The notes under the pieces are model-generated. The model made no database searches and had not been told where the DNA came from. It saw nothing but the letters and a program-made list of their open reading frames with translations. Position numbers and translations under genes: made by a program. From sequence record OP114734.1: 64,000 bases of DNA; one strand, written 5' to 3'. Source of the DNA: Escherichia phage vB_ESM-pEJ01. This document shows, piece by piece, positions 55,021 to 58,578 of this stretch (position 1 is the stretch's first letter; each line of letters starts with the position of its first letter).

Positions 55021-55617
55021 TTATTTGGTAGTACCGTCAATAAAATGTTTACGGCACACAGAGACATATTTATCCTCTGCACCAACTTCTATTTGAGCAC
55101 CATCGCGAATAACATTACCCTCTTTATCTACACGAAGGACCATTGTTGCTTTCTTGCCACAATGACAAATACCCTTCATTTCGACCAGTTTATCAGCAAA
55201 TGCCATTAATGCCGCAGATCCTTCAAATAGATTGCCCTGAAAGTCGGTGCGAAGGCCATAGCACAGTACAGGGATATTTGCATCATCGACAAGCGCACAC
55301 AAGCCTAAAACATGCTCTTTAGTCATAAATTGGGCTTCATCTACAAATACAGCATCAGGACGCCATCGATCCGGTCTACGCTTACCTAACGATTCACGAT
55401 AAACCAAATCGAAAAGATCATCCGATTCAGTGAAGGTGATCGCTGGAGCACTTAGGCCAATTCGGGAAACAACTTCACTTTCTGAATCTCGATTATCAAT
55501 CGCTGGCTTAAGAATTAATACTCGCATATCACGTTCGGTATAGTTATAAGCACTTTGTAACAGAGAAGTTGATTTGCCAGCGTTCATAGATGCATAGTAG
55601 AAATATAGTTGCGCCAT
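55021..55617 (-). CDS. tk: thymidine kinase
   Basis: Walker A ASMNAGKST, DEAQF, C-terminal zinc ribbon CHCG...CRKH. Confidence 0.85.
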   Translation of the reverse strand: MAQLYFYYASMNAGKSTSLLQSAYNYTERDMRVLILKPAIDNRDSESEVVSRIGLSAPAITFTESDDLFDLVYRESLGKRRPDRWRPDAVFVDEAQFMTKEHVLGLCALVDDANIPVLCYGLRTDFQGNLFEGSAALMAFADKLVEMKGICHCGKKATMVLRVDKEGNVIRDGAQIEVGAEDKYVSVCRKHFIDGTTK

Positions 55618-55910
55618 TAATTAATCTCCAAAAATCCAGCAAGACCTAAACCGATATAAGTCCAGATACAAAGGAAAAAGAAGCAAACACCCATAGCAAA
55701 GATAAATCCGCGTAGTGTCTTTGGATAACCTACCCAATATTCCCGACCATCTTCTAACCGGATCAGCTTATTTCCTTGAGAGTCCATATCAATTACAACA
55801 TGTTTATTTCTGGATTGTAACAGATATTGCTTGACAATCTCAATACCCGCCACAATAACAATAACGAAATTGAAAGTCCACATAACAAGATTAATGATAG
55901 TCTCAAGCAT
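55617..55910 (-). CDS. hypothetical membrane protein
   Basis: Two TM helices. Confidence 0.4.
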   Translation of the reverse strand: MLETIINLVMWTFNFVIVIVAGIEIVKQYLLQSRNKHVVIDMDSQGNKLIRLEDGREYWVGYPKTLRGFIFAMGVCFFFLCIWTYIGLGLAGFLEIN

Positions 55911-56145
55911 TTTCTATCACCTCCACCCAATCAGGTGTTTCCTGAAAGACTCCTTCGCCTTCATGATGGTCGCAACCTTTATTGCTACAATACATCCACC
56001 AATCCCACATTCCCCACGGTAAACGCTGCATATCGTCGTTACAGCAAGTGAAGATGATAGGCCAACCACATCTAACACATCGGCAGTTTTCTTTCATGTG
56101 AGCGGTATTAGGCTTCTTCATAGATGACTCCAATATAATCGACAT
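55903..56145 (-). CDS. hypothetical Cys-rich (zinc-binding) protein
   Basis: CRCVRCG...CC...C..GC. Confidence 0.4.
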   Translation of the reverse strand: MSIILESSMKKPNTAHMKENCRCVRCGWPIIFTCCNDDMQRLPWGMWDWWMYCSNKGCDHHEGEGVFQETPDWVEVIENA

Positions 56146-56348
56146 TTACATTTAGGGCAATGCGGTTCTTTAATATAATACCCGTCTGTCTTTGGAACAC
56201 TAACAGGAGCGGTTTTTATATTGTATTCGGTGAAACAACGAAAACAAGTTACGTTTTCTACAGACTGACGTTTCACCCAATAACCGGAATAGAGGTCATT
56301 TTTATTTGTCATATTCCACCACCACAATGTTAATGTCTGGAGTAGCAA
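56118..56348 (-). CDS. hypothetical zinc-ribbon protein
   Basis: CFRC ... CPKCKC; start probably MTNKND. Confidence 0.4.
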   Translation of the reverse strand: MLLQTLTLWWWNMTNKNDLYSGYWVKRQSVENVTCFRCFTEYNIKTAPVSVPKTDGYYIKEPHCPKCKCRLYWSHL

Positions 56349-56757
56349 TATTAATGATTTCTTCTACACATTCCAACTCAAGGCCACCGATACCGCAACC
56401 GATTTTAGGGATATAGAAAGGCTGTATAGCACCTTCAAAAACATCATTGAGAGTCTCAAATCCTTTCAGGATAGCACCATATTCAGCATTTGGACCCGGT
56501 CGGAATTGGGTATAGAGATTCACCCCGCACCAGTTATAACCATTAACTTGATGCGTCCAGACACTAAACCCACCCAACTTTTCTACCTTACCGCGAGAAG
56601 TTTGCTTGTCAATCTCTAACGCTTGCGGGAACTCTTTCGCGATATCCGCAGCAATACCAGCGCCCATAGTATGAAAACAATTACAACCATGAATTAAATG
56701 ACCGTTTCCTTGTTTAAACAGGGCGATGAGATCGCCCTTTACAGTATCAATAATCAT
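56302..56757 (-). CDS. macro-domain protein (ADP-ribose binding/hydrolase fold)
   Basis: HGCNCFHTMGAGIAADIA and IPKIGCGIGGL match the two glycine-rich ADP-ribose-binding loops of macro domains; 151 aa. Confidence 0.65.
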   Translation of the reverse strand: MIIDTVKGDLIALFKQGNGHLIHGCNCFHTMGAGIAADIAKEFPQALEIDKQTSRGKVEKLGGFSVWTHQVNGYNWCGVNLYTQFRPGPNAEYGAILKGFETLNDVFEGAIQPFYIPKIGCGIGGLELECVEEIINIATPDINIVVVEYDK

Positions 56758-56772
56758 AATATAAACCTCTCA

Positions 56773-57132
56773 TTAGTCACGGGAAGACAACCCAGCCATA
56801 AAACGGCTTAACAGTGTGTCGCGATAAGCAAAGCATAATTGCTTATCAGGGGCAGTATCACACAGGTTACGTTTTGTTTTAGCAAAGCTGGCAATACTCA
56901 GATCCCACGCTCGATTTTTTCGTTTTTCGTCTCGACCTTGTTTGTATGCTTCATCAAGTTCGAGCGCGATAAAATCACTACACATGTTATCATCATCACA
57001 GAAAGTTTTAATGATCTTTTTGTTGATCTCAAATCCTTTGTATTCGAACTTTGGATAAGGGCGCTCATTACTAGCAAGCGAACCAGCAGAGAACATCATA
57101 ACAATCATAGCAATTATTGTCAACTTTTTCAT
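56773..57132 (-). CDS. secreted/periplasmic hypothetical protein
   Basis: Signal peptide MKKLTIIAMIVMMFSAGSLA; 4 Cys. Confidence 0.45.
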   Translation of the reverse strand: MKKLTIIAMIVMMFSAGSLASNERPYPKFEYKGFEINKKIIKTFCDDDNMCSDFIALELDEAYKQGRDEKRKNRAWDLSIASFAKTKRNLCDTAPDKQLCFAYRDTLLSRFMAGLSSRD

Positions 57133-57139
57133 ATATTCC

Positions 57140-57730
57140 TCAATAGCGTTTAGTCTTAAGAATGCCTTTACTCTTTAGATGGTTAGCCTTTTTTAGTACG
57201 TCATCAGCATAACCTAATCCGGCTTTATAGTTCCATCCAGCATTGTAAGAAGCTAGCGCGAGTCGGATATTACCGTTTCGAACATCCAGCCAGTATGCTA
57301 ACTCATCCATCGCGTAGAATGCAGAAACCTCGCGATTCATGATAAAGTTGATAGTCTGGCGATCACTCATTTTAACACCGAGCTTTGCATTTTTCGCTTT
57401 CACCGTTTTAAGGTAATTTTGAAACAATCCATAAGCATGATGATTTTTCTTTGGTGCTAAGTTTGCACCCGCGCTTGATTCTTGCCATGCGATACCCGCC
57501 AGGATGTGGCCTAAACCCTTTCCGTTATAGCGAATATTCGGATGGTCCTTTTTCAACTTACCGCTTTTCTCGAATTGCTCGCCGTATTGATAGGCGAAAT
57601 GTAAATTATCTAGTTGGTGTGCTGTAAAGTTGTCTATCGGCGCTTTTTTGATCGGTGCGCTAGTCGATGCGTGTGTAGCACCAACGGCTAGTGACAGACT
57701 CAATACTATCGCTTTTAGAACTTTTAACAT
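57140..57730 (-). CDS. lytic transglycosylase (SLT domain) with N-terminal signal/SAR-like segment
   Basis: SLT motifs AWQESS, YGLFQ, SYNAGWNY; N-terminus MLKVLKAIVLSLSLAVGATHA rich in small residues. Confidence 0.6.
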   Translation of the reverse strand: MLKVLKAIVLSLSLAVGATHASTSAPIKKAPIDNFTAHQLDNLHFAYQYGEQFEKSGKLKKDHPNIRYNGKGLGHILAGIAWQESSAGANLAPKKNHHAYGLFQNYLKTVKAKNAKLGVKMSDRQTINFIMNREVSAFYAMDELAYWLDVRNGNIRLALASYNAGWNYKAGLGYADDVLKKANHLKSKGILKTKRY

Positions 57731-57815: not shown

Positions 57816-58238
57816 TTATTGGTCTACCTTCAAAACAACCGCCGACATTTTACCCGCCAGTCGTTTTGGATTCTCTATAATCATTCGGCAGCATAGACCG
57901 TGATATGGCTTACCCTCTTCGATTAGATCTACTGTCATCCCGATCCACATGTTACCATCAGTAATTTCTAATCGATTAGGTCGGTCTTCCATTTTCAGGA
58001 AGTCGAAGATCTCCGGCAAACGAGTTTCTATCTTATTGAATAGTTCCATTGTCTTATGTTCATCGATATGACGATCGGTTAGACGGTCGATCATATGCGG
58101 ACTAAAGCGAATGAAAATATACTCACCGTAACCATCATTCAAGCACTTTTCTTTGATCTGCGCATTGGTTTTGCGCATTTCGGTTTCGAAGAATCTACGC
58201 AGCTTACTACGGCGAACATGTACGTTAATTGTTTCCAT
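57816..58238 (-). CDS. regB: RegB-like sequence-specific endoribonuclease
   Basis: RLEITDGNMWIGMTV and LCCRMII..RLAGK parallel T4 RegB; start at METINV. Confidence 0.7.
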   Translation of the reverse strand: METINVHVRRSKLRRFFETEMRKTNAQIKEKCLNDGYGEYIFIRFSPHMIDRLTDRHIDEHKTMELFNKIETRLPEIFDFLKMEDRPNRLEITDGNMWIGMTVDLIEEGKPYHGLCCRMIIENPKRLAGKMSAVVLKVDQ

Positions 58239-58242
58239 TTTA

Positions 58243-58578
58243 TTATCCTTTCTTAAACAAATTGCGAAGCCAGTATACAAACGGGATTTCTTTAAACTTG
58301 AATTTCTCTATAGTTAATTCTTTAGTAGCAAGATGAATACCATAAGCATCATGTGTCACGATATGCCATTTTCTATAGTCCAAATGTGAACAACCGTCTG
58401 GATCTAGGTTAATAAGAGTTTCTCGCTCACTAGGATTATTTTTCCACAATTTTGTAATAGGATCGCACATAATTCGACCTAGCGTACCATGAATAATCTC
58501 ACAACGGTAAAGTTTTCCAGCAGTGAGATAGGCGCACCCGTCATAGTCGGTATAAACAAACACTTCTTTAACACTCAT
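58243..58578 (-). CDS. paralogous small protein (DGC.HL family, two repeats)
   Basis: YDGCAYL and DGCSHLDYRKW; start at MSVKEV after promoter 58607..58635. Confidence 0.45.
   Translation of the reverse strand: MSVKEVFVYTDYDGCAYLTAGKLYRCEIIHGTLGRIMCDPITKLWKNNPSERETLINLDPDGCSHLDYRKWHIVTHDAYGIHLATKELTIEKFKFKEIPFVYWLRNLFKKG

What the first reader, a model, noticed from the sequence alone, without database searches (positions are those of the whole stretch)
55903..56757. Macro-domain protein next to zinc-ribbon and periplasmic proteins
ORF 56302..56757 carries both glycine-rich ADP-ribose-binding loops of a macro domain (GCNCFHTMGAGIA; IGCGIGG). Macro domains remove or bind ADP-ribose. The same phage appears to encode an Alt/Mod-type ADP-ribosyltransferase (14430..14933), and hosts use ADP-ribosylating toxins such as DarT for defence, so this protein is a candidate for reversing ADP-ribosylation or degrading ADP-ribose-derived signals. 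It overlaps two small zinc-ribbon proteins (55903..56145, 56118..56348) upstream and is followed by two signal-peptide proteins, so it may act within a small module.
Basis: partly seen in the sequence, partly recalled or inferred. Interest (0 to 1): 0.7.

Follow-up and report, generated by a model that had tools for sequence, protein, structure and literature searches.

The report
Phage macrodomain that counters DarT2 defence
This gene is the RB49-type copy of phage T4 tk.4 (AdfM), a small macrodomain enzyme that most likely strips ADP-ribose off phage DNA to defeat the bacterial DarTG2 defence; the T4 gene's role is already published, so the find is correct but ordinary.

Summary
ORF 56302..56757 (minus strand, 151 aa) is a real macrodomain. 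It passes Pfam's Macro cut-off, gives an AlphaFold2 model with pLDDT 96, and its best structural matches are BT1257, DarG, Poa1p and TARG1.

The window is a Krischvirus (RB49-like T4-type phage). The gene is the syntenic ortholog of T4 tk.4 (44% identity, order regB-vs.1-vs-tk.4-...-tk). Some related GenBank records already call it "macro domain protein".

A 2025 preprint shows that deleting T4 tk.4 makes T4 sensitive to DarTG2, and names the gene adfM.

One refinement: the active site has Gln84 where DarG, TARG1 and PhiKZ AdfM have the catalytic lysine. That matches SCO6735, a stand-alone bacterial macrodomain shown to cleave ADP-ribose from thymidine in DNA.

The other proposals have little support:
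- **Alt/Mod link:** a Mod-like transferase does sit at 14430..14933, but T4 Mod enzymes modify arginine, which macrodomains are not known to cleave.
- **Small module:** T4 lacks both zinc-binding ORFs. The two "signal-peptide proteins" are the conserved Vs and Vs.1.

No activity was tested here; the function rests on orthology with T4.

The parts
56302..56757 (-). Macrodomain protein, 151 aa; ortholog of T4 Tk.4/AdfM. Key residues: N26, Q84, loop 1 at residues 31-36, loop 2 at residues 119-125.
56118..56312 (-). Small zinc-ribbon ORF (64 aa from ATG 56312; CxxC...CxxC), Pfam PF23903. It overlaps the macro stop codon by 11 nt. Context gene, not shown to act with the macro protein.
55903..56121 (-). 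Small Cys/His-rich ORF (72 aa from ATG 56121), Pfam PF23895, with an ATGA overlap to the previous ORF. Homologs lie in the tk.4-tk interval of other T-even phages (for example RB14) but not in T4.
55617..55910 (-). 97-aa hydrophobic ORF (phrog_16027), annotated as a putative membrane protein in W115. Context only.
55021..55617 (-). Thymidine kinase (tk); synteny anchor.
56773..57132 (-). Vs (valyl-tRNA synthetase modifier family) with a signal-peptide-like N-terminus. It lies immediately upstream of the macro gene in transcription; synteny anchor.
57140..57730 (-). Vs.1, an SLT lytic-transglycosylase-domain protein with a signal-peptide-like N-terminus; synteny anchor.
57816..58280 (-). RegB endoribonuclease; synteny anchor. 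The related phage W115 annotates a shorter ORF that starts at the internal ATG (about 58238).
14430..14933 (-). Mod-type ADP-ribosyltransferase homolog next to srd.

Best explanation
The ORF encodes a stand-alone ('orphan antitoxin-like') macrodomain ADP-ribosylglycohydrolase, the Krischvirus ortholog of T4 Tk.4/AdfM. Proposed mechanism: the host toxin DarT2 ADP-ribosylates thymidines in single-stranded phage DNA and blocks replication. This protein binds the ADP-ribose in the cleft formed by its two glycine-rich loops and hydrolyses the thymine-ribose bond, which restores replicable DNA. The catalytic centre is of the SCO6735 type: Gln84, held in position by Asn26, orients the distal ribose and an activated water does the chemistry. 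It is not the lysine type found in DarG. Shown here: fold, orthology, synteny and active-site residues. Shown by others: the T4 knock-out phenotype; the in-vitro activity of SCO6735 and of PhiKZ AdfM. Inferred: the enzymatic activity and substrate of this particular protein.
Against: No biochemistry exists for any T-even Tk.4; the preprint infers the enzymatic mechanism. The function is transferred across 44% identity and a genus boundary. The protein lacks SCO6735's longer mobile loop and its Lys34 and Lys89, which matter for DNA binding there. TARG1 and PhiKZ AdfM also lack the Lys34 equivalent and are reported active on thymidine-linked ADP-ribose DNA. In other phage lineages, homologs sit next to NAD-salvage or RNA-repair genes, which fits small-molecule ADP-ribose substrates. 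The long-standing annotation is 'phosphatase' (A1pp motif).
Confidence: 0.75

Rival explanations
1. It processes soluble ADP-ribose derivatives rather than modified DNA: ADP-ribose-1''-phosphate phosphatase (Poa1p-like) or O-acetyl-ADP-ribose deacetylase activity. That would serve NAD+ salvage or clear by-products of RNA repair.
Against: The T4 ortholog has a specific DarTG2 phenotype. The Gln/Asn pair matches the DNA-active SCO6735. The 'phosphatase' label is a motif-based annotation (T4 record note 'contains A1pp phosphatase motif'); I found no assay behind it. The two activities need not exclude each other.
Confidence: 0.1
2. It neutralises DarT2 mainly by binding, either sequestering the toxin or masking the modified DNA, with hydrolysis dispensable.
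For: Catalytically dead SCO6735 (Q85A) still inhibits DarT in vitro, more strongly than dead DarG or TARG1 (PMC9411070).
Against: The protein lacks DarG's C-terminal DarT-binding domain: it is 151 aa, and the NCBIfam DarG match covers only profile positions 2-141 of 338 (42.5 bits against a cut-off of 250). The catalytic residues N26 and Q84 are almost invariant across homologs, which suggests selection for catalysis.
Confidence: 0.07
3. It reverses or tunes the phage's own ADP-ribosylation or RNAylation by the Mod-like transferase at 14430..14933.
For: A Mod-type transferase homolog is present in the same genome.
Against: By established knowledge, T4 Alt/ModA/ModB target arginine, and arginine-linked ADP-ribose is removed by ARH/DraG-type enzymes, not macrodomains. 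The two genes are about 42 kb apart (coordinates). No such phenotype was reported for T4 tk.4.
Confidence: 0.04
4. It degrades ADP-ribose-derived immune signals such as Thoeris gcADPR.
Against: No data support it. The closest structural and sequence relatives are the DNA- and protein-deconjugating ALC1-like class.
Confidence: 0.03

Closest known systems
T4 Tk.4 = AdfM (anti-DarT factor Macrodomain), bioRxiv 10.1101/2025.11.20.689424
   Same: Full-length homolog (44% identity, E=3e-43), similar length, same position between vs and tk, same HGCNCFHTMG, LYTQ and IG(C/A)GIG motifs.
   Different: Different genus (Krischvirus against Tequatrovirus). The small ORFs between tk.4 and tk are unrelated to T4 tk.1-tk.3. 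The anti-DarTG2 phenotype was tested only in T4.
DarG antitoxin macrodomain of DarTG2 (T. aquaticus 5M31/5M3E, M. tuberculosis 5M3I)
   Different: Gln84 replaces the catalytic lysine. There is no C-terminal DarT-binding domain and no adjacent darT gene. It is phage-encoded and stand-alone.
SCO6735 (S. coelicolor, 5E3B) and BT1257 (2FG1/2AFC): stand-alone Gln-type ALC1-like macrodomains
   Different: Only 22% identity. The window protein has Gly24 where SCO6735 has Val25. It lacks the extended mobile loop and Lys34/Lys89.
PhiKZ gp104 AdfM (Cell Rep 2026, PMC13309987)
   Same: A phage-encoded orphan macrodomain that counters DarTG2; same overall fold class.
   Different: PhiKZ AdfM is lysine-type like DarG (N23/K78). 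It is only 23-26% identical to the window protein and is imported into the phage nucleus. The shared name covers two different branches of the class.
Human TARG1/OARD1 and yeast Poa1p
   Same: Top Foldseek hits (E=2e-10 and 1e-8). TARG1 shares the MGAGIA and IGCG motifs.
   Different: The TARG1 Lys84/Asp125 dyad is replaced by Gln84/Gly124. Poa1p is a phosphatase acting on a soluble metabolite.

Membership tests
Macro domain superfamily (PF01661) | Profile match above Pfam's gathering score | tested here: met
   25.6 bits against a cut-off of 22, E=1.3e-5, covering profile positions 1-118 of 118
Macro domain superfamily (PF01661) | Three-layer alpha/beta/alpha macro fold | tested here: met
Macro domain superfamily (PF01661) | Two glycine-rich ADP-ribose/diphosphate-binding loops and the conserved Asn | tested here: met
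   MGAGIA at 31-36, IGCGIGG at 119-125, and N26; conserved in 68-73 of 73 homologs
ALC1-like (TARG1/DarG/SCO6735/Poa1p) macrodomain class | Closest sequence and structure relatives are members of this class | tested here: met
T4 Tk.4/AdfM orthologous group | Full-length homology and conserved position between vs and tk | tested here: met
   44% identity, E=3e-43. Synteny seen in T4, RB14, CfP1 and Aeromonas phage 31. Only macro gene in the window.
T4 Tk.4/AdfM orthologous group | Loss of the gene sensitises the phage to DarTG2 | not testable with these tools
   Shown only for T4
DarG antitoxin (DarTG2) | Catalytic lysine (T. aquaticus K80) | tested here: not met
   Gln84 aligns with the DarG, TARG1 and PhiKZ lysines
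DarG antitoxin (DarTG2) | C-terminal DarT-binding domain; full-length match to the DarG model | tested here: not met
   The protein is 151 aa. The NCBIfam antitoxin_DarG match scores 42.5 bits against a cut-off of 250 and covers only profile positions 2-141 of 338.
DarG antitoxin (DarTG2) | Encoded next to a darT toxin gene | tested here: not met
   The neighbours are vs and a zinc-ribbon ORF. A bacterial homolog is also stand-alone.
SCO6735-type (Gln) thymidine-ADP-ribose DNA hydrolases | Gln at the catalytic-lysine position plus the Asn that positions it | tested here: met
   Q84/N26 align with Q85/N27. The numbering was checked against the paper. Q84 is conserved 72/73 and N26 73/73.
SCO6735-type (Gln) thymidine-ADP-ribose DNA hydrolases | Val25 and the extended basic mobile loop (Lys89) proposed for catalysis and processivity | tested here: not met
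   Gly24 replaces the valine (only its backbone is implicated). The loop is 6-7 residues shorter.
SCO6735-type (Gln) thymidine-ADP-ribose DNA hydrolases | Hydrolysis of ADP-ribose from thymidine in ssDNA | not testable with these tools
   Needs an enzyme assay
Poa1p-like ADP-ribose-1''-phosphate phosphatase | Phosphatase activity on Appr-1''-p | not testable with these tools

The most novel reading that the evidence does not exclude
The T-even/Krischvirus Tk.4 (AdfM) family is mechanistically distinct from both DarG and PhiKZ AdfM. On this reading it is a Gln-type, SCO6735-like hydrolase, so phages would have recruited two different branches of the ALC1-like class against the same toxin. Like SCO6735, it might also act on protein-linked ADP-ribose. 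A weaker extra possibility is that the adjacent PF23903 zinc-ribbon protein is itself a counter-defence factor. It travels with the macro gene into rV5-like phages, and in the jumbo phage GAP32 it sits among Acb1-like, Sir2, Nudix and NAMPT genes.
Probability: 0.5. Interest if true: 0.35.

Novelty: already known. Interest (0 to 1): 0.2.

Why it matters
DarTG systems block phage replication by ADP-ribosylating phage DNA, so phage-encoded erasers help decide host range, which matters for choosing therapeutic phages. Homologs of this gene occur in 2737 of 50,697 phage records, so its role is of wide relevance. The gene, its fold and (for T4) its anti-DarTG2 role are already described, and this window only adds another ortholog. 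The one modest addition is that the T-even-type AdfM carries the SCO6735-like Gln active site rather than DarG's lysine. The T4 preprint does not mention this (no occurrence of 'SCO6735'), and it suggests a different catalytic mechanism and possibly a broader substrate range.

Tried and rejected
- **Zinc-binding and membrane ORFs against T4 tk.1-tk.3:** BLASTP found no similarity, so they are not orthologs of those T4 genes.
- **Co-occurrence of the neighbours with macro homologs in ten other phage loci:** the PF23903 ORF is linked to the macro gene only in an rV5-like phage. The PF23895 ORF is found only in other T-even phages. Neither occurs near the macro gene in Lazarusvirus, Biquartavirus, Felixounavirus, KVP40, Pakpunavirus, Kuttervirus or CfP1. 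I therefore rejected an obligatory module.
- **Promoter and terminator scan:** the number of promoter-like sites equals the shuffled expectation (12 against 11±3), so it is uninformative.
- **Second macrodomain in the window:** none found.
- **Bacterial homolog context (Pelagimonas):** no darT nearby, so it gives no clue to origin from a DarTG operon.
- **Ranking relatives by score:** profile scores to BT1257, SCO6735, TARG1 and DarG are too close to separate (60.5 to 54.3 bits). Only the active-site residue discriminates.
- **Literature:** the NAD-ADPr virus survey (PMC9503650) mentions neither Tk.4 nor a zinc ribbon. The JACS 2026 hydrolase paper tested no phage enzyme.
- **Failed queries:** three paper queries failed because a search term was shorter than three characters.
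- **Not done:** the 1.84-billion-protein representative search, because it would not change the verdict.

Full report
**What is there**

All genes in this part of the window run on the minus strand. In the order of transcription they are as follows:

| Gene | Coordinates | Evidence |
|---|---|---|
| regB | 57816..58280 | PF10715, E=1.7e-48 |
| vs.1 | 57140..57730 | SLT domain |
| vs | 56773..57132 | phrog_1256 |
| macro ORF | 56302..56757 | see below |
| Zinc-ribbon ORF | 56118..56312 | PF23903, E=1.7e-23 |
| Cys/His-rich ORF | 55903..56121 | PF23895, E=5.6e-34 |
| Hydrophobic ORF | 55617..55910 | phrog_16027 |
| tk | 55021..55617 | PF00265 |

The macro ORF starts at an ATG preceded by GAGG. 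The genes downstream of it overlap by 11, 4, 8 and 1 nt, each with its own Shine-Dalgarno-like sequence, so the run from macro to tk is tightly packed. The ATG starts at 56312 and 56121 agree with the annotation of phage W115 and with where the profile matches begin.

**Where the window comes from**

The 3.3-kb region is 99.6% identical to Escherichia phage Delraymugoa and 98.2% identical to RB49. Both are Krischvirus, which is T4-type (Straboviridae). In RB49 this gene is named tk.4. Other records call it "phosphatase", and W115 and Ec_Makalu_003 call it "macro domain protein".

**Is it a macrodomain?**

Yes.
- **Sequence families:** Pfam Macro is above its gathering score, and phrog_335 matches at 1e-60.
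- **Structure:** an AlphaFold2 model built on 73 homologs has pLDDT 96.1 and pTM 0.90.
- **Foldseek against the PDB:** TARG1 (E=2e-10), Poa1p and the DarG macrodomains of T. aquaticus and M. tuberculosis all match with probability 1.00 and TM 0.7-0.8.

The protein therefore belongs to the ALC1-like (TARG1/DarG/SCO6735/Poa1p) class.

**Orthology with T4 tk.4**

The protein is 44% identical to T4 Tk.4 over its full length (E=3e-43). It sits in the same slot between vs and tk. The flanking genes show similar divergence from T4: tk 53%, vs.1 53% and regB 42%. It is the only macrodomain match in the 64-kb window. Homologs occur in 2737 phage records, including T-even phages, rV5-like phages, Felixounavirus, Pakpunavirus, Kuttervirus and jumbo phages.

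**What is known about the family**

- **T4 genetics.** A transposon screen of T4 (HIDEN-SEQ, bioRxiv 10.1101/2025.11.20.689424) found tk.4 as the single significant hit on a DarTG2-expressing host. A clean knock-out was sensitised. The authors named the gene adfM and inferred, without biochemistry, that it removes ADP-ribose from DNA.
- **PhiKZ.** Independently, PhiKZ gp104 was named AdfM. It removes DarT2-installed ADP-ribose from an oligonucleotide in vitro and rescues DarT2 toxicity (PMC13309987).
- **AdfN.** T4 30.3 (AdfN), a NADAR protein, counters the guanosine-specific DarTG1 (PMC11825919).

It had already been demonstrated genetically for the ortholog.

**Active-site refinement**

In sequence, profile and multiple alignments, Gln84 of the window protein occupies the position of TARG1 Lys84, the catalytic lysine of Mtb DarG and PhiKZ gp104 Lys78. 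T4 Tk.4, KVP40 Tk.4, a Pakpunavirus homolog, BT1257 and SCO6735 also have Gln there. Among 73 homologs, Gln84 is kept in 72 and Asn26 in all 73.

SCO6735 is a stand-alone Streptomyces macrodomain that cleaves thymidine-linked ADP-ribose from DNA and rescues DarT toxicity. Its Q85A mutant is inactive and N27S is nearly inactive. The proposed mechanism has Gln85, locked by Asn27, positioning the distal ribose while an activated water does the chemistry (PMC9411070). I checked my transcription of the SCO6735 sequence against the paper's residue numbers.

The window protein thus has the SCO6735-type Gln/Asn pair rather than DarG's lysine. It lacks SCO6735's longer mobile loop and its Lys34 and Lys89. 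The T4 preprint compares Tk.4 only with Mtb DarG and does not mention SCO6735. The name AdfM is now used for a Gln-type family (T4) and a Lys-type family (PhiKZ; 23-26% identity to the window protein).

**Not a DarG**

Only the first 141 positions of the 338-position DarG models match: PADLOC E=4.5e-12, and NCBIfam 42.5 bits against a cut-off of 250. There is no DarT-binding domain, no catalytic lysine and no neighbouring darT. A bacterial homolog in Pelagimonas is also stand-alone. The protein works like an orphan antitoxin but is not a member of the DarG family.

**The proposed module**

- **Not in T4.** T4 lacks both zinc-binding ORFs, and its tk.1-tk.3 genes are unrelated to the window ORFs. 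Yet tk.4 alone was the single significant hit on DarTG2.
- **PF23895 ORF.** It has homologs in 785 phage records. In RB14 the homolog lies between tk.3 and tk.2, so it is a variable resident of the tk.4-tk interval in T-even phages.
- **PF23903 ORF.** It occurs in 233 records. In an rV5-like phage it lies 258 nt downstream of a macro gene, and that pair is 78% and 68% identical to the window pair. This is much closer than T4's 44%, which suggests a two-gene cassette exchanged between lineages.
- **Other contexts for PF23903.** In the jumbo phage GAP32 it lies between an Acb1-like 2H phosphodiesterase and Sir2, Nudix-cREC, NAMPT and NMNAT genes. In a Klebsiella phage it follows an HD-domain protein.

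These patterns fit small accessory or counter-defence genes that gather in the same variable regions. They do not show an obligatory partnership with the macrodomain. The two "signal-peptide proteins" are Vs and Vs.1, conserved T4-type genes.

**The Alt/Mod link**

ORF 14430..14933 is a Mod-type ADP-ribosyltransferase homolog next to srd, as in T4. It matches phrog_832 at 1e-20 and is 33% identical to ModB (E=8e-11) and 23% identical to ModA. By established knowledge, the T4 enzymes modify arginine, and arginine-linked ADP-ribose is removed by ARH/DraG-type hydrolases, not macrodomains. I found nothing connecting the two genes.

**Rivals**

The legacy "phosphatase" reading (Appr-1''-p, Poa1p-like) keeps some support from structure and from NAD-salvage or RNA-repair neighbourhoods in Pakpunavirus and KVP40. 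It does not explain the T4 phenotype. A purely stoichiometric mode is conceivable, because inactive SCO6735 still inhibits DarT. The near-invariance of Gln84 and Asn26 argues for catalysis.

**Verdict**

The main interpretation is correct but already published for the ortholog, and the secondary ideas are unsupported. Function for this specific protein is inferred from orthology, fold and active-site conservation, and no activity was tested. Novelty is "already known" and interest is low (0.2). The only modest addition is the Gln-type active site.

Noticed in passing
window 56773-57132 (vs); L002 5387-5734 (T4 vs): Both the window Vs (MKKLTIIAMIVMMFSAGSLA...) and T4 Vs (MTKILVLCIGLISFSASASA...) begin with a signal-peptide-like hydrophobic segment. 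That is unexpected for a protein described as a modifier of cytoplasmic valyl-tRNA synthetase.
   Followed up: partly
window 56118-56312; L004 4711-4905; L015 3974-4210; L016 3938-4123: The PF23903 zinc-ribbon ORF lies next to counter-defence or NAD/ADP-ribose genes in several unrelated phages. It follows the macro gene in Krischvirus and an rV5-like phage. In the jumbo phage GAP32 it sits between an Acb1-like 2H phosphodiesterase (PF23474, E=5.7e-16) and Sir2, Nudix-cREC, NAMPT and NMNAT. In a Klebsiella phage it follows an HD-domain protein. It could itself be a counter-defence factor.
   Followed up: partly
window 56118-56757 versus L004 4001-4905: The macro gene and the following zinc-ribbon ORF are 68% and 78% identical to those of rV5-like (about 136-kb) E. 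coli phages, but the macro protein is only 44% identical to T4's. This suggests a two-gene cassette exchanged between unrelated phage groups.
   Followed up: partly
L009 2106-4480; L008 2529-4513: Macro homologs sit directly after NAMPT, ribose-phosphate pyrophosphokinase and RNA ligase in a Pakpunavirus, and after polynucleotide kinase (pseT) and RNA ligase in KVP40. These contexts point to NAD salvage or RNA repair rather than DNA de-modification.
   Followed up: no
window 14430-14933: A single Mod-type ADP-ribosyltransferase homolog (167 aa, closer to ModB than to ModA) lies between srd and the gp56-like NTP pyrophosphohydrolase. T4 has two paralogs, modA and modB, at this position.
   Followed up: partly
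L017 2498-2874 (RB14) versus L002 (T4): RB14 carries two extra small ORFs between tk.3 and tk.2. One of them is the PF23895 zinc-binding homolog, annotated 'similar to RB49ORF089c'. T4 lacks both, so the tk.4-tk interval is a variable region among T-even phages.
   Followed up: partly
phage records MG065682, MG065647, MG065659, MG065644: Records labelled 'Campylobacter phage' (A112b, D#, C5, A147) carry macro and zinc-ribbon genes that match the window proteins at the same identities as the E. coli rV5-like phages do (about 66% and 78%). Their host labels may be wrong.
   Followed up: no
window 55617-56757: The genes from macro to tk form a chain of overlapping stop and start codons (11, 4, 8 and 1 nt), which is consistent with translational coupling.
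   Followed up: no
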